The position numbers and the translations under genes are program-made. Positions 1-19,937 of a stretch of DNA of 34,932 bases are shown in pieces (the first letter of the stretch is position 1; every line of letters begins with the position of its first letter). Origin of the DNA: an uncultured Opitutales bacterium (GTDB lineage: Bacteria > Verrucomicrobiota > Verrucomicrobiia > Opitutales > CAZEFS01). The stretch is from positions 1 to 34,932 of the forward strand of contig CAZEFS010000001.1 of the NCBI GenBank assembly GCA_964511545.1, in the 5' to 3' direction. The notes beneath the pieces were generated by a model. That model saw only the letters and a program-made list of their open reading frames with translations. It was not told the origin of the DNA and searched no databases.

Positions 1-15
1 TTTTTGTCAGGTAGT
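1..15 (+). mobile_element. Last 15 nt of an IS4-like right terminal inverted repeat (window appears to open at the edge of another IS copy)
   Basis: nt 1-15 TTTTTGTCAGGTAGT are identical to 19678-19692, the inner part of the right IR of the IS at 18235-19696. The next 4 nt differ (ATGA vs TTAA). Confidence 0.4.
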
Positions 16-32
16 ATGATTTTTCTTGAATT

Positions 33-50
33 TTAGGCTTGACTTTTTGT
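33..50 (+). promoter_or_regulatory. Promoter-like 18-mer containing TTGACT, shared with the tRNA-Ser upstream region
   Basis: TTAGGCTTGACTTTTTGT (33-50) matches 14415-14432 at 17/18 positions. It contains a TTGACT -35-like hexamer. No convincing -10 could be placed. Confidence 0.25.
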
Positions 51-325
51 TTCAACTTTTATATACCGAAACCTATAATTTATTTTTGTTCTTTTACATT
101 CAAATCAGCCTTCTCAGTTTTTGCAAGCTCATTTTTAAAAAAGAGGTTCTCACCGCTTTTTTAAAATGAAGAAGCAGGCCCCCCTGATAATTTTAGCTAA
201 AGTCTACAAACCCCGACCTATAATGATCTTTGATCATCAAAGTAGATTAAAAGGGATTAAAGGGCGGCTGCTTTAGATCCTCTCCTTTTTAAAAAGAAGA
301 AATTCTCTACTTACCCCCCCCCTCC

Positions 326-470
326 CCCCTACGCGGGGTTAGAGCTGAAATTACGCTGCAACCGTAGGGGCGTAGGCGAATGAAATTACGCCGTAGCCTT
401 GGGGAAAGAGAAAGGCTCCCCTACGCGAAGTTAGAGGCTGGGAGTAAACCTCTTGGTGGGCCTACGTATT
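326..470 (+). repeat. GC-rich repeat block, module P (CCCCTACGC-type units, hairpin forming)
   Basis: CCCCTACGC occurs at 326-334 and 418-426 (and again at 18662-18670). The inverted copy CGTAGGGG at 363-370 gives an 8-bp stem with 326-333. TGAAATTACGC is duplicated at about 346-356 and 380-390. Local GC is far above the surroundings. Confidence 0.6.
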
Positions 471-472
471 AT

Positions 473-572
473 TTTGCTTGGCCTGCCGGGCGTCTACACC
501 GAGCCTTCAGGCGTCGCTCTACGAGCGACGTGTCAGGCATAGTTCGCAGAACGACACCTGAACCCAGGCAGC
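473..572 (+). repeat. GC-rich structured repeat, module Q (compact copy)
   Basis: Three blocks are shared with 18593-18748: TGCCGGGCGTCTACAC (14/16), AGCCTTCAGGCGTCGCTCT (19/19) and AGCGACGTGTCAGGC (14/15). Perfect 8-bp hairpin CGTCGCTC-TAC-GAGCGACG at 512-530. TTCAGG (506-511) pairs with CCTGAA (557-562). Imperfect terminal inverted repeat GCCTGCCGGG / CCCAGGCAGC. Confidence 0.65.
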
Positions 573-664
573 TAAAGACAATGGTTTCGCAAGAGGTCTA
601 AAGTAGGGGGAGGAATATCAGACATATAAAAAATCAATGCATATTCAACACGCTTCTGAGAACT

Positions 665-2011
665 TTATTTATTATCATACAAAGGGAACATCTCACCTCT
701 TTGAAAAATATAGACTTGGCCCGTACTAGAAGAAACTGTAATTGCCATACAACTAGCCGCCAGAGAAATGGCTAGGGCTGCAGCATGCCGAGTGCCTAGC
801 CCTCCAGGCAGTTCTTTATAATAATTGGGCGCATGGATGAGACTACCTGCAGATTCTAAGACCCCATCCCCTCTGACCACAAAGGCACCATCTAGGCTAG
901 AAAACTCCTTTATCGTCTCATCCATAAAGGGGTTTAGGATATTGCGATCTTCTTCTTTATAGCCGTAAAAAGGATTCAAGATCAGGGGCTTGGTAAAAGG
1001 AGCGAGTTCTTTGGTATCTCCTATCACAAAGCAAGTGCCTACTGCCCTTCCTTCACGGCCTTCAAGGCCTAGCTCCATGGCGATAGCCAGCACACGCTCT
1101 AGCACTTCAGGCTTAATATGATCTGGCAAAATATTTTTCTTCTTACTAAATAAAGCCGAAAATTCTTTCTCCACTTCTACTACCACCAAGGTATCAAACT
1201 GATTGCTGCCCGCAACTCCCCCTACGCAACAGATTTTATCCTTAACCTCCACTACCCCACGGCTTAGGGCGATTAACACAGCACTCCGTAGCTGCGAGAG
1301 CCGATTACTAGAATAAGAACGTACAATAATCGTTTCATCCACTATGCTTTCTGTAAAGCTATGGTTACTCGCATCTTGAGTGACTAGTATCGTCTTAAAA
1401 CGGGTAAATTGGCTGGGAAGATTAAAGTTTCCACTGAGCGTATCCGCAAAAATCATGATGGTAGAGCAGCAAGTACCCCTTGCCATATGATCTGCCTCTT
1501 TCAGGATAAACTGATTAAACTTATTGCTTTTTACCTTTGGGCTATGGGTACTCCCTCTGAAGATTTGTAGAGCCTCTTTCTTCAGTAAAGGGAGCTTTTC
1601 TACCTGAAATAAACGATTGACAATAGGTTTATCATGAAAAATACGGGCTAAAGCTGCTAAAACCTTGAGGTAGGACTTATCTGTCTCTGAGGCCAGGAGC
1701 AACAAGACAAATTTGAGCTGCCGGTAATCTTCTATATCCTCATAGTCTAGGCCTTGCTTACAACGGCCTAAGACAAAGATATAGGGCTTCTTACTCTTGA
1801 TTCTAAGGTGGGGGATGGCTATGCCACTACTGAGACAAGTAGTGATATTGGCTTCTCGCTTTAATAGCTCTTGATGGATATGGTCTGGTTTCCCGGCAGT
1901 CTCAAAAACGGATAGAGGACAGACGGTTAGCATCTCTTCTAAAGCCGCGCTAAAGGTGTGGCTTTGTAAGTCTATAATGCGGCTAGGCTGGATATAGCGG
2001 TCTAGTCTCAT
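665..2011 (-). CDS. PTS EIIA type-2 domain :: central alpha/beta domain :: diadenylate cyclase (DAC/DisA_N) fusion protein
   Basis: 448-aa ORF. The N-terminus has the EIIA-2 signature around SGIAIPHLRI. The C-terminus has the DAC motifs EGREGRAVGTCFVIGD, LDGAFVVRGDG and GGLGTRHAAALAIS. The start lies 3 nt after the nuoA stop. Confidence 0.8.
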   Translation of the reverse strand: MRLDRYIQPSRIIDLQSHTFSAALEEMLTVCPLSVFETAGKPDHIHQELLKREANITTCLSSGIAIPHLRIKSKKPYIFVLGRCKQGLDYEDIEDYRQLKFVLLLLASETDKSYLKVLAALARIFHDKPIVNRLFQVEKLPLLKKEALQIFRGSTHSPKVKSNKFNQFILKEADHMARGTCCSTIMIFADTLSGNFNLPSQFTRFKTILVTQDASNHSFTESIVDETIIVRSYSSNRLSQLRSAVLIALSRGVVEVKDKICCVGGVAGSNQFDTLVVVEVEKEFSALFSKKKNILPDHIKPEVLERVLAIAMELGLEGREGRAVGTCFVIGDTKELAPFTKPLILNPFYGYKEEDRNILNPFMDETIKEFSSLDGAFVVRGDGVLESAGSLIHAPNYYKELPGGLGTRHAAALAISLAASCMAITVSSSTGQVYIFQRGEMFPLYDNK

Positions 2012-2014
2012 ATG

Positions 2015-2389
2015 TTATTGATCCCATTCAAGCGCTTTTTTTCGAAATTCGTAACAAAGACCAAAAGCCAAAAGGCCAATAAACGCTAAGATAGGCCCTA
2101 CTATAGGAAGCTTTGCAGCTAGAAACTCTCGATGTATGGTCACCCAAGGGAGGAGGAAGACAAGCTCAATATCAAACAAGATAAATAAGATCGCGGTGAG
2201 GTAAAACTTTACCGAAAAACGAGGGTGGGCCTTCCCTTGAGCTATCAGACCGCACTCGTAGGCAGAGTCTTTGATGGTACTAGGCCTAGCCCTTTGGCCA
2301 AAAATATGACTCAAGACAAGAATAAGAACGACTAAGCCGCTCGCCACTAAAAGCTGAGCGAGAACAGGAAGATAAGCAGCATACTGCAT
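2015..2389 (-). CDS. nuoA: NADH-quinone oxidoreductase subunit A
   Basis: 124 aa, three TM segments. Hallmark motifs YECG, FYLTAILFILFDIELVFLLPW and a C-terminal ALEW. Confidence 0.9.
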   Translation of the reverse strand: MQYAAYLPVLAQLLVASGLVVLILVLSHIFGQRARPSTIKDSAYECGLIAQGKAHPRFSVKFYLTAILFILFDIELVFLLPWVTIHREFLAAKLPIVGPILAFIGLLAFGLCYEFRKKALEWDQ

Positions 2390-2603
2390 AAAAATTATGT
2401 GAATGAAAGAAGCCCTTAGTTATAAAAGGCAAGTCATTTTAGCTGGATTTTTCTCTTTTGAAAACAAAAAACTGAAACTATTTTTGCACCTTTGCATCTC
2501 ATTTTAGAAAGCCCTAGCTACGCTGGGCACAATCTTATTTTATCCAGTATTCAGCCCTAAATACAGCTTGACTTTCGCTCTAGGCTGAGCAGATTTATTG
2601 TTT

Positions 2604-3027
2604 AAGAAGAGAGCTGGAGCGTTCGCCTCTTTTAGCCTAAAAACTAAGAGGGGAGGAAAGTCCGGACACCGCAAGGCACGCCTCCTCATGAAAATGAGGG
2701 CTTCCTGGGCTATACCCAGGGGGATGGACAGTGTCACAGAAAATATACCGCTTTCCAGGGAAGGCTTTTAGCTTTTTCGAAGAAGTAAGGGTGAAATGGT
2801 AGGGTAAGAGCCTACCGCTAGCCTTGGCAACAAGCTAGGCACGAAAAACCCAGGCGGGTGCAAGGCAAAATAAGAGATACGGGCCGCCTGCCCAAGGAGA
2901 AGCGCCTCTATGCTTCTTCGAATATCTCGGGTATGCTGCATCAGATAAATGAACGCAAAAAGCAAAGTTTAAGGGTTCACCTGAGACCTAGTTTTTACAG
3001 AATCCGGCTTATGAAGGCTCTCTTCTT
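2604..3027 (+). ncRNA. rnpB: RNase P RNA, bacterial type A
   Basis: Conserved blocks GAGGAAAGTCCGGAC (P4 5' side), ACAGAAAATATACCGC, GGGTGAAATGGTAGGGTAAGAGCCTACCGC and ACAGAATCCGGCTTATG (P4 3' side). P1 pairing joins AAGAAGAGAGC (2604-2614) to GCTCTCTTCTT (3017-3027). Confidence 0.92.
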
Positions 3028-3031
3028 TTTT

Positions 3032-3167
3032 CTTTTATAGTCGATTCAGTTGAACTAGCGTACAGAAGTTGATCCTCTAAGGTAAAACAATTCATAATTT
3101 TGAAAGCTATTGAAATCCATTCATTCCTTTTTTAGATACGCTAGCTCAACTGAATTTACTATAAAAG
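3032..3167. repeat. 136-bp palindromic element: 31-nt inverted repeats (28/31) around a 74-nt AT-rich core, MITE-like or a long terminator for rnpB
   Basis: Left arm CTTTTATAGTCGATTCAGTTGAACTAGCGTA (3032-3062). Right arm TACGCTAGCTCAACTGAATTTACTATAAAAG (3137-3167). Confidence 0.6.
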
Positions 3168-3405
3168 TGACTAGCCTGGGTTGATTTTGAATAGACCTCT
3201 TGTCAAACCCTAGACTCCTTGGGCAACCCTTGTCTTGTCCTCCCGGAGGGCCTCAAACCTGCATTCGAAGCCCTTGTTTACGCCTTGGGTGAGACCTTTT
3301 TGATATCTCTTAGCTACGGCCCAAGCTTTTAGATCGTTTCCAAAGAGATCTATTCTGGCATATTCCTAGAAGATCTTGTCTTCAAAGGACGCTTTAGCTT
3401 AGCCA

Positions 3406-5076
3406 CTATCGTGCCCTTTTTGTCCGAGGGGCGTTTAAGGATCCTTCTTGTTTCTCTTCTATAGCCTTGAGTAAGCGCTCTTGCTCTTCGGTATCTTTTA
3501 CAGTCTCCTCCACTACTGCTTTACGAAAGTCTGGATGCAGTTCAGTACGAGTGACGATAGCCGTGATAAGATCTGTTTTTGCGTCATCCGAAGCCAGATC
3601 ATACAGCCTACGAAATGCTACGAAATGATTCTGAAGCGGTTCCTCTTCCAATAGATCTTCCTCTTTTACTAGAGGCCAGTTTTGACATAGGGTTGTTATG
3701 ACGAGATTTTTTATTTTAGTATCAAGAATGCCTTCTACAAAAGCTATCGCTGCATGCATGGAGCGAAAAGCATCAATGCTCAAAATATTGGCAATAATAG
3801 AAGGATAGAATTCTTCTTGTATTCTTTGATTCATGATCAGCTGTGCAGCCCTCAGTCGATAGTGGATAGGTCTTACTGTAGGATCTTGATCGATAGCATA
3901 AGGCCACAGACGCATTCCAGTATCTACTTGAGGATCTTGAGCGATCGAAAGACAAACTGCATCGCGTTGAGTAGTGTCTTCGATTCGCTCAGCAGCTCTC
4001 AGGCGATCGGCAGGATATACTTTAAGATCTTGAGCGATAGAAAGATAAGCTGCATCGCGCTGAGTAGCGTCTTGGATCCGCTCTGCAGCCCTCAGGCGAT
4101 CGGCAGTATCTACTTTAAGATCTTGAGCGATAGAAAGGCAAATCGCATCGCGCTGAGTAGCGTCTTGGATTCGCTCCGCAGCCCTCAGGCGCTTGGCAGG
4201 ATATACTTTAAGATCTTGAGCGATAGAAAGGCAAATCGCATCCACTACATCACGCTGGTTAAAATCTTTTATCCGCTCTGCAGCCTGTAGGCGATTGTTG
4301 ATATCTACGGTAAGATCTTGAACGATGAAAAGATAAGCTGCACCGTTCTGGGTAGCCTCTTTGATCAACTCCGCAGCCCGTAGGCGATCATTGATATCTA
4401 TTTTAGGATTTTGAGCGATAGAAAGGTAAGCTGAATTGCGCTGGGGATATCCTTGGATCGCTTCTATGGATCTCAGGCGATTATCGAGATCGATCTTAGG
4501 ATCTTGAGCGATACAAAGATAAGCTGCATCGCGCTGGGGATAGGCTTGGATCATCTTCGCAGCATTCAGGCGATTATTGGGATCGACCTTAGGATCTTGA
4601 GCGATGCAAAGATAAGCTGCATCGCACTGAGTACCCTCTTGGATTAGGTTTGCAGCATTCAGGCGACAGAAGCTACTTACCTTAGGATCTTGAGCGATGG
4701 AAAGATAAGCTCTATCACGCTGAGTACCCTCTTGGATCAGCTCTGCAGCCTTTATGCGCTTGCTGGTAGGTACGTTACAATCTTGAGCGATAGAAAGATA
4801 AGCTCTATCGCGTTGGGTATCGTCTTGGATCCATTTTGCAGTCATCAGACGCTCATTGGTAAATTCTTGAGGATCTTCAGCGATGAAAAGAGCTTCCAGT
4901 TCCACCATATTCCCCGGAGCTTCAGCTAAATGGCCTTGTATGGCTGGATTGGCTTCTTGCTGGCTTATAGGCTGATTGGCTTGGTCTGAAGCTGTCTTGC
5001 GGCTTTGATCCGCCTGAGAACTGGCATTGTGTAGACTCTTTCCACCTGGATTAGATATGTTAGTTTGTGTATGCAT
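3406..5076 (-). CDS. Tandem-repeat protein with 11-12 copies of a 31-33 aa HEAT/PBS-lyase-like helical repeat, a polar disordered N-terminus and a basic C-terminal tail
   Basis: 556-aa ORF. The unit AAYLSIAQDPKVDxxxRLRAAERIQDATQRD is reiterated. The protein ends in PRTKRAR. No Shine-Dalgarno motif; AT-rich upstream region. Confidence 0.8.
   Translation of the reverse strand: MHTQTNISNPGGKSLHNASSQADQSRKTASDQANQPISQQEANPAIQGHLAEAPGNMVELEALFIAEDPQEFTNERLMTAKWIQDDTQRDRAYLSIAQDCNVPTSKRIKAAELIQEGTQRDRAYLSIAQDPKVSSFCRLNAANLIQEGTQCDAAYLCIAQDPKVDPNNRLNAAKMIQAYPQRDAAYLCIAQDPKIDLDNRLRSIEAIQGYPQRNSAYLSIAQNPKIDINDRLRAAELIKEATQNGAAYLFIVQDLTVDINNRLQAAERIKDFNQRDVVDAICLSIAQDLKVYPAKRLRAAERIQDATQRDAICLSIAQDLKVDTADRLRAAERIQDATQRDAAYLSIAQDLKVYPADRLRAAERIEDTTQRDAVCLSIAQDPQVDTGMRLWPYAIDQDPTVRPIHYRLRAAQLIMNQRIQEEFYPSIIANILSIDAFRSMHAAIAFVEGILDTKIKNLVITTLCQNWPLVKEEDLLEEEPLQNHFVAFRRLYDLASDDAKTDLITAIVTRTELHPDFRKAVVEETVKDTEEQERLLKAIEEKQEGSLNAPRTKRAR
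3840..4890 (-). repeat. Coding tandem repeat, period 93-99 bp, about 11 units
   Basis: The core GATCTTGAGCGATAGAAAG(A/G)TAAGCTGCATCGCG recurs near 3932, 4026, 4118, 4212, 4311, 4406, 4500, 4593, 4686, 4778 and 4872. Confidence 0.9.
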
Positions 5077-14489: not shown

Positions 14490-14577
<88 letters not shown>

Positions 14578-14662
14578 GCTTTCGTTCTACGAACTACAGC
14601 TGGCAGGCCAAATTTATTTTAACGAAAGCTGTCCGCCGAAGCCTTAGCGAAGGAGGACTACT
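14578..14662 (+). repeat. Structured GC-rich linker between the tRNA-Ser 3' end and the GIY-YIG gene
   Basis: 9-bp stem GCTTTCGTT (14578-14586) / AACGAAAGC (about 14622-14630). Inner GTTC-TAC-GAAC hairpin. AGCTGGCAGG can pair with the tRNA 3' end CCGCCAGCT. The CCGAAGCC and AGCGAAGG motifs recur in the other GC-rich elements. It ends in a canonical AAGGAGG 6 nt before the ATG. Confidence 0.5.
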
Positions 14663-14905
14663 ATGTTTTATGTTTATTTAATCCGCTCAATTCCTTTCTC
14701 GGACCAAGTTTATGTTGGGATTACTGAAGATCTCAAAAAACGCCTAGAAACCCATAATTTTGGTGGTTCTGTGCACACAGCTAAATACAAACCCTGGGAA
14801 TTAATTGTCTATATGGGCTTTCAAAATGAAGTCAAAGCAAGGCAATTTGAAAAATATTCGAAATCTGGTTCTGGTCGTTTTTTTGCTAAAAAACGTTTAT
14901 GGTAG
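14663..14905 (+). CDS. Small stand-alone GIY-YIG nuclease-domain protein (UPF0213-like)
   Basis: 80 aa. FYVYLIRS....QVYVGITEDLKKRLETHN fits the GIY-(x10)-YIG core with the downstream R and the helix carrying H/N. Strong Shine-Dalgarno motif. Confidence 0.85.
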   Translation: MFYVYLIRSIPFSDQVYVGITEDLKKRLETHNFGGSVHTAKYKPWELIVYMGFQNEVKARQFEKYSKSGSGRFFAKKRLW

Positions 14906-14940: not shown

Positions 14941-15000
14941 CCCCCGAAGTCTCCATTGTGATCCCTTGGGCGCCGTAGCTTAAAAAGCGAAGGCGAAAGG
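14941..15000 (+). repeat. GC-rich module-P-like fragment 3' of the GIY-YIG gene
   Basis: CGCCGTAGC (14971-14979) is identical to 389-397, with CTTGGG adjacent in both places. CCCGAAG and AGCGAAGGCGAAAGG echo motifs at 14630-14655 and 18715-18745. Confidence 0.4.
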
Positions 15001-16524: not shown

Positions 16525-17477
16525 TCATAGCACCTTACCCAGAGGAATATCGCTTGAGTCCGATGAATGATGAGCAGGATCATCAAACGGCATTGCTGTA
16601 TAGCCGTTTTTGAGATAAAATCTTAAGCTGCCCTGCCTCGATTCTACATGGATACTTTTGATGCCTGATGCTTTCAACCACTGCCTGATTAAGGCCAAAA
16701 ATTGACTACCCAAGCTTTGATTACGCTGATTCTCATCCACTACTATGATACGAATCGCCGCCCTTTGCTCAGACCAGAACTGAATATGGGCGTAAGCTAT
16801 AATCTCTGTACCTTGATATAAAACCAGATGGACATGCGCTTCATGATGAAATGTCCAGGTATAGGGGTCTTCTAGGCATTGAGGCTCAAAAAAATACTTA
16901 TCTCGAAAATGCTTCGCAGCAGCCCACTCAGTAGCGTCACTGCACTTCAGCATCCGAACTCTATTAAACCCCGCTTCTCTCAAAACGCTTCGAATAAAAT
17001 CGCCCTTGCGGAGCGTGTAATTTGTGAAAAGTGAATTTTCTTTATTCAATGATGATTCGTCTTGGATCAACTCCTTCTTAAGCTGGGCATAATCATCTCG
17101 TCTGTTCGGATGATTTCGTAGGTAATCCCTAAACATTAGGTTTAATTCAATTTCCGGATGAAATGCTTCGTATACATGAAGATTCAGGTCGATCTCTCCT
17201 CGCTTACTGAAACCATAGTGCAAGGGGATGTTGTATTCGCCTTTATGCTTCAGACCAATTGTCTCTAGTTGCTGAATTGCAAAAAGGGGTTTTGCACCAC
17301 AGCGATCATATCAATCTTAGGCTTAGCAGGAAGCCCTGGCACTGCAGTGGAGCCAATGTGGTGTATCTCTAAAAGGTTACTCCCTAAGGCTTGCTTGATA
17401 TGTGCTGCCTCTGCCTCAAACATATAAGGCCAGCTTGGGTTGTAGGGAAGAATCTCAATGTTTTTTGTTTTACTCAT
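16525..17477 (-). pseudogene. GrpB (UPF0157 nucleotidyltransferase-fold) :: GNAT acetyltransferase fusion, interrupted by a 1-nt frameshift
   Basis: The 70-aa ORF (17265-17477) carries the GrpB N-terminus (HIGSTAVPGLPAKPKIDMIAVV). The 232-aa ORF continues the GrpB C-terminus in another frame (upstream extension reads KPLFAIQQLETIGLKHKGEYNIPL) and ends in a GNAT domain (IIVVDENQRNQSLGSQF...YLKNGY). The frames switch within the run AAAACCCCTTTTT (17281-17293). Confidence 0.75.
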
Positions 17478-18234
17478 GTGATTTTAACTCTAATACAATA
17501 AACGTTATTAATTCACGAATATCAAAACAGCGATGAGGATGATGCTTGAAGTCTGAACGCTTAAGGCAATCCAGCAAAGAGCATAGATTCAATAAATGGA
17601 TAGTGCTAGACCAAGTATCAGGTAAGTCAATACCGCTTTTTTTTAAAGCATTGATGAAAGAAGTTTGAAATACAGGTGGCATTTTATGAGCGTATCTAAG
17701 CATGCTAGCAATATCCCAAAGATAAGACCCTGAAAAAGCAAATTCCCAGTCTAAAATTGCACTCACTTTCCAAACGTCTTTCACCTTATTTACCAAAATG
17801 TTTGCTGGATCAAAATCCCCATGAACAAGATGCTGTCCTTCTAAATAAAAACCTTGAGACGATCTAGATCATAGATAGCTGTGTTGTTCGAGGATAGTAC
17901 TAATTGCTAAAATGCTATCTGCAGTCAGCACAGATAATACCGTCTCATGGCTTAAACAATTCTTGGCACATTTTAAAACATCAGTACATGGGTAAGGCAT
18001 CACTCTTAATGCTTTATCCAAAAAACCTGTTTCTAAAAATGAATGCGATGCAATGCTTGATAGAGTCATGCCTACTTCATGCATGATTGCATTAAGGTCA
18101 TAAGGAACGTCTCCTAGCAAAAGATCCCGAAGGGGCATACCTGGCATAAACTCTGTAATGGCAAAGTGATACCCTGCAAGTTCACCGATGTAATACGTTA
18201 ACGGTACAGGTACGGTTTTTTTTATGAATGTTGC
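17470..18234 (-). pseudogene. Aminoglycoside/choline-kinase-type phosphotransferase (APH family), C-terminal two thirds, with an in-frame TGA
   Basis: Motifs HGDFDPANILV and ILDWEFAFSG. The ORFs 17470-17796 and 17869-18147 are in the same frame, separated by a TGA at 17869-17871. The reading frame continues upstream to the IS boundary at 18234. Confidence 0.85.
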
Positions 18235-18592
18235 TTAAACTACCTGACAAAAAAAAGGGGTAAGTTAAAAGCTTGATGAACAGTGGGAAAGCTGGCATCA
18301 AGCTTTTATGAAAAAAAAACACACTTACCCGATGGGTAGGCCATATTATATCGCTAAATAAGTCAAGAGCAAAGTGCTTAATGAGAATGATGACGGGGAT
18401 GATTACGCTGAGAACGGTCAATTTGAACCGATTAAGCCAGGCTTTTCGGCCGACGGTTCAAGAGGCCTCACACGAGCGCACCATGAGTCGTTTTCTGAAA
18501 GAAATACAGATAAATCCACTGGAAATCCTTCGGATAGTTAGAGCTATGCTCGCTGCGAAAAAAATAGAATACTTATGCAAATAGGTATCGTT

Positions 18593-18748
18593 TTTGTTGG
18601 CTTGTCGGGCGTCTCCACTACGCCATCTCCACTGCGCTGAAGCCTTCAGGCGTCGCTCTTCCCCCTACGCTCCTTGAGCTACGGGAGACAGGTAGCTTTT
18701 AAAGCGACGTGTCGGGCGAAGCTCAACGAGCGAAGCCCGAAGCCTGAA
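18593..18748 (+). repeat. GC-rich module Q copy, with a module-P-like segment nested in its hairpin loop, inserted in the transposase gene
   Basis: Shares the three blocks listed for 473-572. Here the two halves of the CGTCGCT/AGCGACG stem are separated by about 44 nt (18660-18702) containing CCCCTACGC. Flanking inverted repeat GGCTTGTCGGGC (18599-18610) / GCCCGAAGCC (18735-18744). Confidence 0.7.
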
Positions 18749-19292
18749 TAGAACAAACTGGAAAAGGGGAAAAAAGCACTTAAATTTCTTATTTATAGCT
18801 TTGAAAACGCAGCATTGGACCATCCCCATATGGGTCTTGCCTATCTGTGAGCAAAAACAAGGCAATCATAGCTTAGCTCAGCTAGAATCAGCTCTGGAGG
18901 CCGTTTTGAAGATAATTCCTGCTAAAAAAATAGATTATTTTTTAGGAGATACTGAATTTGGAGCACTGAGCCGAATTAAGCTTTTTCAAGAGAAGGGAAT
19001 TCCCTATATAGTCCGCCTAAAAGAGGAGTGGAATTGGGCTTATCAAGGCGAAGAGCGTCGTTATATTCATGAATGGTTTCGCGGTTTACCCGTAGGGAAA
19101 AGCCGCACTTTAGTGTTACAATTGGGAGAAAAAGCTGAAGTGACTACTTCGGTAACCGCTAAACGCCTCAAAGATGACAGTCTAATTATTGTGGCACATA
19201 ATTCATCCAAAAGAAATCCTATAGACATTTATCGATCCAGATGGAGTATCGAAACTCTGTTTCGTTCCCTTAAAACTAACAAATTTAATAGA

Positions 19293-19433
19293 TCCCTTGC
19301 GAAAGTAGGTATTTTGACTCCTGGGCAGGAAAAAATAGATGAAGAACCGCAGTGTACAGAAGTACATGAGGATTCTGAATGTATTTTTGACGAACCCAGG
19401 GAGCAAAAGACTTCTTTTCCCAAGGGTTCTAGT
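19293..19433. repeat. Small palindromic (MITE-like) in-frame insertion in the transposase C-terminal region
   Basis: 32-nt imperfect inverted repeats (24/32) at 19294-19325 and 19395-19426. ATAGA occurs on both flanks (19288-19292 and 19434-19438). The encoded acidic, low-complexity stretch of about 48 aa lies between KTNKFN and IESTGVTDP, where IS4-type transposases are normally contiguous. Confidence 0.5.
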
Positions 19434-19696
19434 ATAGAATCTACAGGAGTTACAGACCCTTTGAAACTGCGAAATTTAATCCATATTATCATTTTATGCT
19501 TCCTTTTTGTTCTCGATCAAGCCCAATATCTTTTTTCAAAGTTTCCCATTCCTTTTATCATTAAGGCACATGGCTATCCCGCTAAAAGTTATTGGAGATC
19601 CTTCTTTGACCGAATCCAATCCATCATTTTTGACCAATTTATCCCCTTCTTTTCCGCTTCCTATGCGTCCTAATTTTTTTTTGTCAGGTAGTTTAA

Positions 19697-19937
19697 ATGT
19701 TGCTAGTTTTTGTTCTTGATAAGCAGCAGCTTTACTGCGCAAATAAAGACGCAAAATCAGTGGTTGGTTTACATTTTCCAACTGAATTTTATAATTAAGA
19801 TTAGCGCACCCGCCAGCAATCAATTCAAATGCAGTAAGTTTTTTATCAGGATAAGCAAGGTTTATCATTCTTTCTACCATGCTATCTGGCAGCTGATATG
19901 TAACGCTTACTTTTTCCCAAGAGTTTTTAAACATCAC
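19697..19937 (-). pseudogene. APH-family phosphotransferase, N-terminal third (severed from 17470-18234 by the IS)
   Basis: The N-terminus carries ELIAGGCANLNYKI and ILRLYLR. Removing the IS plus one ATGTTGC copy restores a continuous frame ...YQEQKLATFIKKTVPVPLTYYIGE... The start codon (GTG 19937 or ATG 19934) overlaps the upstream GNAT stop. Confidence 0.85.

What the first reader, a model, noticed from the sequence alone, without database searches (positions are those of the whole stretch)
301..612. Composite GC-rich structured repeat block belonging to a dispersed modular family
A stretch of about 270 nt, far more GC-rich than its surroundings, lies 3' of the dac-nuoA operon and has no credible coding capacity. 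It resolves into two module types.

Module P (326-470) is built from CCCCTACGC units:
- Direct copies at 326-334 and 418-426.
- An inverted copy at 363-370, which gives an 8-bp stem.
- A duplicated TGAAATTACGC.

Module Q (473-572) has terminal inverted repeats, a TTCAGG/CCTGAA helix, a perfect 8-bp hairpin with a TAC triloop, and a second small hairpin (GTTC-GCA-GAAC). Together these suggest a compact three-way-junction fold.

Both modules recur elsewhere in the window:
- 18593-18748.
- 14971-14979, which shares CGCCGTAGC.
- C-TAC-G-closed hairpins also occur at about 2514-2530 and 14585-14597.

I do not recognise this as any described REP/BIME/MITE or RNA family.
Basis: seen in the sequence. 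Interest (0 to 1): 0.7.

Follow-up and report, generated by a model that had tools for sequence, protein, structure and literature searches.

The report
Nested mobile repeats: MITE plus hairpins
The GC-rich block is a pile-up of selfish repeated DNA: a 156-bp miniature transposon filled with GC-rich hairpin units, sitting beside other dispersed repeats, so it is an undescribed family of an ordinary kind and not a new structured RNA.

Summary
The motifs are at the stated coordinates, the block is about 56% GC against 41% for the window, and both modules have true homologues elsewhere.

The boundaries and the reading need changing.
- All of window 1-600 is repeated DNA; unique sequence starts sharply at 601.
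- "Module Q" is the interior of a miniature inverted-repeat transposable element (MITE) at 445-600. It has about 19-bp terminal inverted repeats (TAGACCTCTTGCRGAACC / GGTTYCGCAAGAGGTCTA) and TA at both ends.
- At least 10 further full copies, 141-412 bp, lie in different unique flanks on contigs of the same metagenome. Two more copies are in the window, at 3192-3352 and 19289-19432. The latter is a 144-nt in-frame insertion in an IS4-family transposase gene.
- The GC-rich content is a separate layer of about 30-nt REP/BIME-like hairpin modules (TCRGGC-GWA-GCTC-NNN-GAGC-GAA-GCCYGA) with compensatory changes. They colonise MITE interiors, IS copies and intergenic DNA.
- "Module P" is a third dispersed unit of about 60 nt with a hairpin of similar design.

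No Rfam family matches. The proposed three-way junction is not conserved. The transposase partner and the organism were not identified.

Verdict: a new member of known kinds (MITE plus REP/BIME-like mosaic), of modest interest.

The parts
1..22 (+). Right-end inverted repeat (TTTTTGTCAGGTAGT...) of an IS4-family IS copy. The body of that copy lies upstream of the window.
   Evidence: Matches the right inverted repeat of the complete IS at 19675-19696 (D5 and I5). Contig L001 extends 258 nt further left and shows the IS end with more hairpin modules.
19..172 (+). Dispersed repeat 'unit A', about 150 nt. It carries a promoter-like TTTAGGCTTGACT box and usually abuts the IS right end.
   Evidence: At least 10 copies at 85-93% identity in other contigs.
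173..322 (+). Dispersed repeat 'unit R', about 150 nt, ending in GAAGAAATYCTCTACTTA followed by a C-tract.
   Evidence: 8-9 copies. It is always followed by a C-tract and then GC-rich modules.
323..444 (+). 'Module P': two degenerate copies of a dispersed unit of about 60 nt. Consensus: CCCCTACGCGAGGTTAGAGCTARRATTACGCCGTAGCTTGAAAAGCGAAGGCGAAAGG.
   Evidence: Alignment of 10 copies. BLAST hits in L033, L058, L059, L053 and L039.
445..600 (+). MITE copy Q1, 156 bp including the TA at each end. The left terminal repeat is degenerate (TAAACCTCTTGGTGGGCC, 445-462). The right terminal repeat is GGTTTCGCAAGAGGTCTA (583-600).
   Evidence: Terminal-repeat scan, end BLAST, copy table with flanks, alignment A5, and sharp coverage steps at 445 and 600.
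512..530 (+). 8-bp hairpin with a TAC loop. It is formed by a reverse-oriented half module fused to the GAGCGACG of the next module.
   Evidence: Read from the sequence, predicted fold, and comparison with L044 and L059 interiors.
525..569 (+). Canonical GC-rich hairpin module: GACGTG-TCAGGC-ATA-GTTC-GCA-GAAC-GAC-ACCTGA.
   Evidence: Covariance model R1, 54.8 bits, E=8e-11. Pair statistics.
3192..3352 (+). Second MITE copy with the same terminal repeats (TAGACCTCTTGTCAAAC ... GTTTCCAAAGAGATCTA) but a different interior.
   Evidence: Also present in the other strain's contig L013.
14567..14611 (-). Weak, reduced hairpin module directly 3' of tRNA-Ser.
   Evidence: R1 24.8 bits, E=0.0017. BLAST fragments.
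14965..14998 (+). Partial P unit (GCGCCGTAGCTTAAAAAGCGAAGGCGAAAGG) downstream of the GIY-YIG ORF.
   Evidence: Alignment A4.
18590..18745 (+). GC-rich hairpin array ('Q2') inserted in the 5' part of the IS4-family transposase gene.
   Evidence: Absent from intact IS homologues L066 and L067. R1 hits at 18704-18748 (+, 67.8 bits) and 18652-18696 (-, 24.8 bits).
19289..19432 (+). Basic, AT-richer MITE copy of 144 nt. It is inserted in frame in the transposase gene between KFN and IEST.
   Evidence: Protein alignment and DNA alignment to the empty sites in L066 and L067. Terminal repeats.

Best explanation
The block is a mosaic of selfish repeated DNA deposited in the intergenic space 3' of dac. 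It is not a gene.

The core, 445-600, is a non-autonomous DNA transposon (a MITE). It has two imperfect terminal inverted repeats of about 19 bp, conserved subterminal regions of about 45 nt, and TA at both ends. I infer that it moves by cut-and-paste or copy-in when a DDE transposase encoded elsewhere binds the terminal repeats, most likely duplicating a TA target.

Its original AT-richer interior, of about 100 nt, has been replaced or expanded by a second layer of repeats. These are GC-rich imperfect palindromes of about 30 nt (TCRGGC-GWA-GCTC-NNN-GAGC-GAA-GCCYGA) and relatives. They occur singly, in tandem and in inverted pairs, as REP/BIME/REPIN elements do. The same units also invade IS copies and intergenic DNA.

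The MITE sits inside or next to a third repeat (P units) that follows a fourth (unit R with its C-tract).

Shown:
- repetition;
- the terminal repeats;
- unique flanks for each copy;
- a filled site versus empty sites in the IS;
- hairpin covariation.

Inferred:
- the transposase-in-trans mechanism;
- TA as a true target duplication;
- any effect of the hairpins on the 3' end of the dac-nuoA transcript.
For: 1. Repetition. Coverage of window 1-720 by other contigs is 8-25 fold up to position 600 and 0 from about 605. There are sharp steps at 445 and 600.
2. Terminal repeats. TAGACCTCTTGCRRAACC matches at 583-600 (minus strand) and 3192-3209 (plus strand), against 0.07 expected.
3. Copies. At least 10 full copies of 141-412 bp have conserved ends, unrelated flanks and TA at the ends.
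4. A filled site versus empty sites. Intact IS homologues read ...SLKTNQFN|IESTG... The window IS has 144 extra nt bounded by the terminal repeats.
5. Hairpin-array insertion. The same comparison shows a separate insertion of about 155 nt of GC-rich hairpins at 18590-18745.
6. Hairpin module.
   - 47 oriented instances were found by pattern.
   - The covariance model gave 74 hits at E<=0.1 in 212 kb.
   - 96.5% of cells are paired.
   - 4 of 10 pairs show double changes: 22 cells against 2.3 in shuffles, reached by 0 of 500 shuffles.
7. No Rfam family matches the block or 135 kb of copy-bearing contigs.
8. A different 120-nt TA-flanked terminal-repeat element at 3040-3159 is absent from another strain's contig. 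So TA-targeting MITEs have moved recently in this lineage.
Against: - No autonomous element with matching terminal repeats was found in the roughly 245 kb available.
- TA may simply be part of the terminal repeat. The one filled/empty comparison for this family fits TA duplication only with 3 extra nt.
- The left terminal repeat of the window copy is degenerate, with 5 mismatches, so this copy is probably immobile.
- Hairpin counts are not independent events, because copies share descent. The pattern used to collect them fixed parts of both stems.
- The loci were chosen by a hairpin 19-mer, so densities outside the window are biased upward.
Confidence: 0.78

Rival explanations
1. The primary mobile entity is the GC-rich hairpin unit, a REP/REPIN-like element moved by a RAYT-type (Y1, IS200-like) transposase acting on single-stranded hairpins. 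On this view the MITE with terminal repeats is only a favoured landing pad, and the block is essentially a BIME.
For: - The hairpin is conserved, with compensatory changes.
- Units occur in inverted pairs and in mosaics of alternating orientation.
- They are inserted into an IS relative to intact homologues.
- At the variable outer pair, G.T outnumbers A.C by 13 to 1 on the oriented strand, which hints at selection on one strand in single-stranded form.
- GTAG/CTAC motifs are frequent.
Against: - No Y1/RAYT homologue is in the 245 kb sampled. The queries were recalled from memory, so this is weak.
- GTAG lies in the internal loop, not at the 5' head of the palindrome as in classical REPs.
- At the inner stem the mismatches are C.A on the same strand (5 cases), which contradicts a clean strand bias.
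- The sharp repeat boundaries at 445 and 600 coincide with the terminal repeats, not with the hairpins.
Confidence: 0.3
2. The block, or module Q, encodes a structured non-coding RNA with a three-way junction, such as an sRNA or ribozyme.
For: - Q1 folds better than shuffles: z=-3.0 on the plus strand and -3.4 on the minus strand.
- The hairpins show covariation.
Against: - There are no Rfam hits, even at E<=10.
- Interiors of homologous copies differ in module number, order and orientation, from 141 to 412 bp, so no junction is conserved.
- Copies lie inside a transposase ORF.
- No promoter-like or terminator-like signal above background brackets the element.
- Palindromic DNA repeats yield the same covariation without any RNA function.
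Confidence: 0.05
3. The block is a decayed fragment of the IS4-family element, which itself carries the MITE and hairpin arrays. On this view it is not an independent insertion.
For: - An IS end abuts the region at window 1-22.
- IS copies do carry both the MITE and the arrays.
- The Q1 right end resembles IS-internal sequence at 19392-19411, because that stretch is the MITE copy inside the IS.
Against: - BLAST of the whole IS against the window finds only the IS itself.
- The sequences flanking 445-600 are a P unit on the left and unique DNA on the right. They are not the KFN/IEST transposase codons.
- Other MITE copies lie in many non-IS contexts.
Confidence: 0.05
4. The 8-9-mer recurrences are a by-product of GC-rich intergenic composition, with no homology.
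For: Some short matches, such as 2514-2530 and several 10-mers, are at chance level.
Against: - There are long colinear matches, covariance-model scores up to 67.8 bits, conserved ends of about 45 nt, and dozens of copies.
- The 19-mer gave only 11 isolated hits in unrelated taxa among 185,579 species genomes, as chance predicts, while the family is concentrated in one metagenome.
Confidence: 0.01

Closest known systems
Bacterial MITEs that use a TA target: Correia elements/NEMIS of Neisseria and RUP of Streptococcus pneumoniae (mobilised by IS630-Spn1). Named from my own knowledge of the literature.
   Same: - Size of about 100-160 bp in the basic form.
- Terminal inverted repeats of about 20-26 bp.
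- TA at both ends.
- No coding capacity.
- Many dispersed intergenic copies, often just 3' of genes.
- Internal deletion and expansion variants.
   Different: - The terminal-repeat sequence is unrelated to Correia or RUP, judged from memory and not tested.
- No cognate IS was identified.
- The interior is heavily colonised by a second family of GC-rich palindromes, so copies range from 141 to 412 bp.
REP / BIME / REPIN elements of Proteobacteria, with their RAYT transposases.
   Same: - GC-rich imperfect palindromes of about 30-35 nt.
- Found singly, in inverted doublets and in mosaic clusters with other short motifs.
- Compensatory stem changes.
- A preferred habitat at gene 3' ends.
- Can be associated with IS elements.
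   Different: - The conserved feature is a symmetric GWA/GAA internal loop (GCGAAGC / GCGTAGC motifs), not a 5' GTAG head.
- No RAYT was found in the sample.
- The units sit inside a MITE scaffold.
- The sequence core is absent from 185,579 species-representative genomes.
Rickettsia palindromic elements (RPE).
   Same: One copy (19289-19432) is inserted in frame in a protein-coding gene and keeps the frame open for 48 codons.
   Different: There is only one such case here, in a transposase gene that is already a pseudogene. Most copies are intergenic. There is no sequence relationship.
Nested or compound MITEs of cyanobacteria (for example Nezha and the Microcystis MITE families).
   Same: Several MITE and short-repeat families are nested in one another and in IS elements, in a repeat-rich genome.
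   Different: The family and the terminal repeats differ, and the host is unidentified.

Membership tests
MITE (non-autonomous DNA transposon with terminal inverted repeats) | Short (under about 500 bp), with no transposase or other credible ORF | tested here: met
   Copies are 141-412 bp. The only ORF in the block, of 73 aa, is not in the protein collection. A six-frame query found no homologues.
MITE (non-autonomous DNA transposon with terminal inverted repeats) | Terminal inverted repeats conserved among copies | tested here: met
   TAGACCTCTTGCRGAACC / GGTTYCGCAAGAGGTCTA in at least 12 copies. The left repeat of the window copy is degenerate.
MITE (non-autonomous DNA transposon with terminal inverted repeats) | Multiple dispersed copies in unrelated flanking sequence | tested here: met
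   Each copy has different flanks. Coverage drops to zero at 601.
MITE (non-autonomous DNA transposon with terminal inverted repeats) | Target-site duplication shown by comparing a filled site with an empty site | tested here: inconclusive
   TA is at the left end of 10 of 10 copies and the right end of 8 of 10, with no longer direct repeat. The IS filled/empty comparison fits a TA duplication only with 3 extra nt. A clean TA (or TATA) case exists only for a different MITE, at 3040-3159.
MITE (non-autonomous DNA transposon with terminal inverted repeats) | A cognate autonomous IS with the same terminal repeats | tested here: not met
   No terminal-repeat pair flanks a transposase in about 245 kb. 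L053 6948-8266 encloses an APH-like gene, not a transposase. The whole genome is not available.
REP / BIME / REPIN | GC-rich imperfect palindrome of 20-40 nt, repeated many times | tested here: met
   47 pattern instances. 74 covariance-model hits in 212 kb, 4 of them in the window. 96.5% of cells paired, with double changes.
REP / BIME / REPIN | Mosaic clusters and inverted doublets | tested here: met
   Arrays with both orientations occur in MITE interiors and IS copies. The minus strand of Q1 folds as one long doublet hairpin.
REP / BIME / REPIN | Conserved GTAG/CTAC tetranucleotide at the head of the palindrome | tested here: not met
   GTAG occurs in 23 of 47 units, but inside the internal loop (GGGC-GTA-GCTC). 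The conserved 5' flank is GACGTG.
REP / BIME / REPIN | An associated RAYT (Y1/HUH) gene flanked by the units | not testable with these tools
   tblastn with remembered IS200 TnpA and E. coli RAYT sequences found nothing in 245 kb.
Any Rfam RNA family | A covariance-model match at or near the gathering score | tested here: not met
   No match in the window block at gathering threshold, and only noise at E<=10. No match over copies in 135 kb of loci.
Correia element / RUP (specific families) | Family-specific terminal-repeat sequence and cognate IS | not tested
The dissimilarity is judged from memory only.

The most novel reading that the evidence does not exclude
The GC-rich hairpin units may form a previously unrecognised self-propagating palindrome system. 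Their conserved symmetric GWA/GAA internal loops are the GCGAAGC/GCGTAGC motifs known from very stable DNA mini-hairpins. An unidentified enzyme, not a classical RAYT, could recognise them in single-stranded form. It would insert or amplify the units preferentially inside MITE scaffolds and IS elements. The result would be a three-tier nesting of mobile DNA, and possibly the silencing of transposase genes.
Probability: 0.12. Interest if true: 0.6.

Novelty: new member of a known kind. Interest (0 to 1): 0.3.

Why it matters
This matters mainly for annotation and for understanding this uncultured lineage.
- It shows that a GC-rich 'structured' island next to dac is mobile-DNA debris, so it should not be annotated as an RNA gene.
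- It defines a MITE family, a hairpin-unit family and two further repeat units. These can be masked, or used as strain markers, in wastewater and activated-sludge metagenomes.
- The nesting (hairpin units inside MITEs inside IS elements, with one MITE in frame in a transposase) illustrates how mobile elements inactivate one another.
- The regular GWA/GAA hairpin design could be a useful substrate if the enzyme that spreads it is found.

Tried and rejected
- **Rfam.** Searched the window at gathering threshold, the block at E<=10, and 135 kb of copy-bearing loci. Only RNase P RNA and tRNAs were found.
- **Genome-collection scan.** The Q 19-mer AGCYTTCAGGCKTCGCTCT gave 11 isolated hits in unrelated taxa, with no flanking similarity. 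The pattern also did not cover the variant in L001.
- **Six-frame protein query.** A concatenated six-frame translation of the repeats, searched against the protein collection to catch spurious ORFs in other copies, returned nothing at E<=0.01. This was probably a poor use of a capped search.
- **Organism identity.**
  - Accession searches in the paper library found nothing.
  - Cluster members carry no informative names.
  - uL2 against PDB sequences is equidistant from many phyla.
  - The best plasmid match for the IS transposase is Neochlamydia sp. S13, at only 28% identity.
  - The organism remains undetermined.
- **Syntenic comparison of the block.** The nuoA contigs from other samples are too short to reach it.
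- **GIY-YIG link.** Only one copy of the GIY-YIG gene is in the sample, so a link to the repeats has no support.
- **Y1/RAYT search.** Queries recalled from memory gave no hit.
- **Viral contigs.** Only single chance matches, with no partner terminal repeat.
- **Terminator and promoter scan of 1-800.** Nothing above shuffles.
- **Literature search** for MITEs in chlamydia-like or amoeba-associated bacteria. Nothing describes this family.

Full report
**1. What is in the sequence**

Window 301-612 lies between an IS end at the window start and the 3' end of a gene on the minus strand.
- That gene, at 665-2011, has PTS_EIIA_2, DacZ_P and DAC domains. It is co-oriented with nuoA at 2015-2389.
- The block is 55.5-56% GC. 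The whole window is 41.4% GC.
- The only ORF of note, at 380-601 (73 aa), is not in the protein collection. A six-frame query had no homologue.

**2. The recurrence is real homology**

Q aligns colinearly with 18593-18748.
- The shared blocks are TTGGCYTGYCGGGCGTCT, an exact 19-mer AGCCTTCAGGCGTCGCTCT, and AGCGACGTGTCRGGC.
- The only public contig carrying the exact dac protein is JACCDN010627048.1 (GCA_013558295.1). It equals window 1-4871 and adds 258 nt on the left. That extra stretch holds another IS end with further Q-type units.

Scans of the public collections gave contrasting results.
- A 19-mer scan of 185,579 species-representative genomes gave only 11 isolated hits in unrelated taxa, with no flanking similarity. 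This is what chance predicts.
- A scan of the metagenome collection with GACGTGTYGGGCGWAGCTC returned 49 loci. About 24 are JACCDN01 contigs with obviously related arrays.

So the family is real, abundant in this organism or community, and absent from reference genomes, at least for that core.

**3. True boundaries**

I ran BLAST of window 1-720 against these loci, with the overlapping contig L021 left out and window 1-720 itself masked in the database.
- Coverage is 8-12 fold for 1-400.
- It dips to 0-1 at 407-444.
- It rises abruptly at 445 to 9-29 fold, then falls abruptly after 600.
- There are no hits from about 605.

The whole intergenic region is therefore repeated DNA. It resolves into these parts:
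- the IS inverted-repeat remnant, 1-22;
- unit A, about 19-172;
- unit R, 173-322, which ends in GAAGAAATYCTCTACTTA plus a C-tract;
- P units, 323-444;
- a sharply bounded element at 445-600.

**4. Module Q is the inside of a MITE**

Copies in other contigs share about 45 nt at each end.
- Left end: TAGACCTCTTGCAGAACCACGTATTATCTTGGTTGGCCTGCCGGGCG...
- Right end: ...GAACCCAGAGAGCAAAAGACAATGGTTTCGCAAGAGGTCTA
- The outermost 18-19 nt are inverted repeats of each other.
- The terminal-repeat pattern occurs twice in the window, against 0.07 expected.

Ten full copies were laid out with their flanks.
- Lengths are 141, 154, 156, 174, 187, 207, 232, 263, 292 and 412 bp.
- The flanks are unrelated to one another.
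- All ten begin with TA and eight end with TA. There is no longer direct repeat.
- A mismatch-tolerant scan adds more copies, including window 3192-3352.

The shortest versions are L019 1-141 and window 19289-19432. They are AT-richer and lack GC hairpins. The longer versions differ by blocks of GC-rich units inserted in the interior.

The window copy, 445-600, has a perfect right terminal repeat and a degenerate left one.

**5. A filled site versus empty sites**

The IS at 18235-19696 has 22-bp perfect inverted repeats, a 7-bp duplication ATGTTGC, and a DDE_Tnp_1 domain.

Its homologues from other samples are P0017, P0018 and P0019. Their contigs include L066, from an activated-sludge assembly.
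- They read SLKTNQFN-IESTG without interruption.
- The window copy has 48 extra in-frame codons, 144 nt, at 19289-19432. These are bounded by the MITE terminal repeats.
- The window copy also has a separate insertion of about 155 nt of GC-rich units at about 18590-18745.

So both the MITE and the hairpin arrays are insertions relative to an ancestral sequence.

The junction of the MITE in the IS fits a TA duplication only if 3 extra nt are allowed. I therefore treat TA duplication as likely, not proven.

**6. The GC-rich layer**

A pattern search oriented by the purine-rich internal loops found 47 units of the form TCRGGC-GWA-GCTC-NNN(N)-GAGC-GAA-GCCYGA, usually preceded by GACGTG.

Pair counts on 43 distinct sequences:
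- 96.5% of cells form standard pairs.
- 4 of 10 pairs show changes on both sides.
- 22 doubly changed cells were seen, against 2.3 in shuffles. None of 500 shuffles reached that number.
- Slid controls collapse to 17-40% paired.

Caveats: the copies share descent, and the collecting pattern fixed several stem positions.

A covariance model built from them finds 74 matches at E<=0.1 in 212 kb.
- Four are in the window: 525-569 (+), 18704-18748 (+), 18652-18696 (-) and 14567-14611 (-).
- Three are in an unrelated JGI contig, L026.

Strand signal is mixed.
- At the variable outer pair, G.T outnumbers A.C by 13 to 1 on the oriented strand.
- At the inner stem, the five mismatches are C.A on that same strand.

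The P unit was aligned from 10 copies. Its consensus is ...GGTTAGAGCTARRATTACGCCGTAGCTTGAAAAGCGAAGGCGAAAGG. I read its hairpin (CGCC-GTA-GCTT-GAA-AAGC-GAA-GGCG) directly from the sequence as having the same stem, GWA, stem, loop, stem, GAA, stem design. It is probably a cousin of the Q unit.

**7.

- The 8-bp TAC hairpin (512-530) is a reverse-oriented half unit fused to the GAGCGACG of the next unit.
- GTTC-GCA-GAAC is the inner stem of a canonical unit. It carries a compensatory GCTC/GAGC to GTTC/GAAC change relative to the L044 copy.
- CCTGAA is the outer 3' arm of that same unit.
- On the minus strand, the two oppositely oriented units pair into one long doublet hairpin of -48.8 kcal/mol. 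This is REPIN-like.
- Homologous copies differ in the number and order of units, so a three-way junction is not a conserved feature.

**8. Mechanism**

Shown:
- a non-coding element with terminal inverted repeats, dispersed in unique flanks;
- insertion into a gene relative to intact homologues;
- a second, smaller palindromic unit that also appears as insertions.

Inferred:
- The MITE is mobilised in trans by a DDE transposase that recognises the terminal repeats, probably one that targets TA.
- The hairpin units spread by a REP/RAYT-like route or by a recombinational route.

Supporting context: a different 120-nt element with terminal repeats, at window 3040-3159, is flanked by TA (or TATA). 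It is absent from the orthologous site of another strain (L013, about 97.5% identical). So TA-directed MITE insertion has been recent in this lineage.

Not found:
- an autonomous partner;
- a Y1/RAYT gene in the sample.

Any effect on dac-nuoA mRNA 3' ends is speculation by analogy with REP and Correia elements, from my own knowledge. The simple scan saw no intrinsic terminator.

**9. Comparison and novelty**

- In kind, this is a MITE of the Correia/RUP type carrying REP/BIME-like palindromes.
- In sequence, it matches no Rfam family. The tested core found no related copy in reference genomes. A literature search found nothing describing it.
- I file it as a new member of known kinds.
- The somewhat unusual points are the three-tier nesting, the in-frame MITE in a transposase, and the very regular GWA/GAA hairpin design.
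- The organism was not identified.

**Verdict**

Interest is about 0.3.

Noticed in passing
window 3040-3159 (flanking TA at 3038-3039 and 3160-3161): A 120-nt AT-rich element has 23-bp terminal inverted repeats (GTCGATTCAGTTGAACTAGCGTA / TACGCTAGCTCAACTGAATTTAC). It lies directly 3' of the RNase P RNA gene. It is absent from the orthologous site in another strain's contig (L013, JAHZTE010269410.1), whose empty site reads CTTCTA-TG-TAAAG. This is a polymorphic, TA-targeting MITE of a different family.
   Followed up: partly
window 18235-19696: A complete IS4-family IS with 22-bp perfect inverted repeats and a 7-bp duplication ATGTTGC. Its transposase is a pseudogene, interrupted by a hairpin array and by an in-frame MITE. 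The ORF fragments on its two sides, 19536-19937 to the right and 17470-17796 (plus 17869-18147) to the left, both on the minus strand, look like parts of one APH-type phosphotransferase gene that the IS disrupts. Only the 17470-17796 fragment was scanned, and its Pfam APH hit is below the curated cutoff.
   Followed up: partly
window 19-172 and 173-322; L058 1727-2264; L059 6048-7810; L017 3068-3790: Two repeat units of about 150 nt, A and R. Each has a promoter-like box and ends in a C-tract. They are present in 8-12 copies. Unit A almost always directly abuts the right inverted repeat of the IS4-family element. In another sample (L067) the same IS sits just upstream of a similar TTTAGGCTTGACT box in front of what looks like rpmB (my reading of the translation). 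This suggests insertion-site preference or co-mobilisation. Their function is unknown.
   Followed up: partly
window 14663-14905: An 80-aa stand-alone GIY-YIG nuclease ORF (Pfam E=3.4e-14) lies immediately downstream of tRNA-Ser(GGA). It is flanked by a weak hairpin unit (14567-14611) and a partial P unit (14965-14998). Only one copy is in the sampled DNA, so no link to the repeats could be shown.
   Followed up: partly
window 3829-4881, inside ORF 3406-5076 (minus strand): At least eight tandem copies of a 93-nt (31-codon) repeat lie inside a 556-aa ORF. The ORF has no confident family assignment.
   Followed up: no
window 2606-3029: The bacterial class A RNase P RNA (205.9 bits) appears to lack the P18 helix in the Rfam alignment. 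It has several lineage-specific insertions.
   Followed up: no
window 665-2389 (minus strand): nuoA stands alone, with no nuoB-N nearby. Its stop codon is followed directly by the start of a diadenylate cyclase gene with an unusual PTS_EIIA_2 + DacZ_P + DAC architecture.
   Followed up: no
L053 5936-8266; L033 2479-2523: Very short 'terminal repeat to terminal repeat' remnants of the MITE, about 30-45 bp, occur at L033 2479-2523 and L053 6948-6980. Oppositely oriented MITE ends bracket a rhodanese-like gene and an APH-like gene in L053. These may be separate remnants or a compound structure.
   Followed up: no
L026 (JGI Ga0272441_10136055) 401-485 and 2154-2195: Degenerate copies of the same hairpin unit occur in a contig from an unrelated JGI metagenome. 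So the unit is not confined to the JACCDN01 sample.
   Followed up: partly
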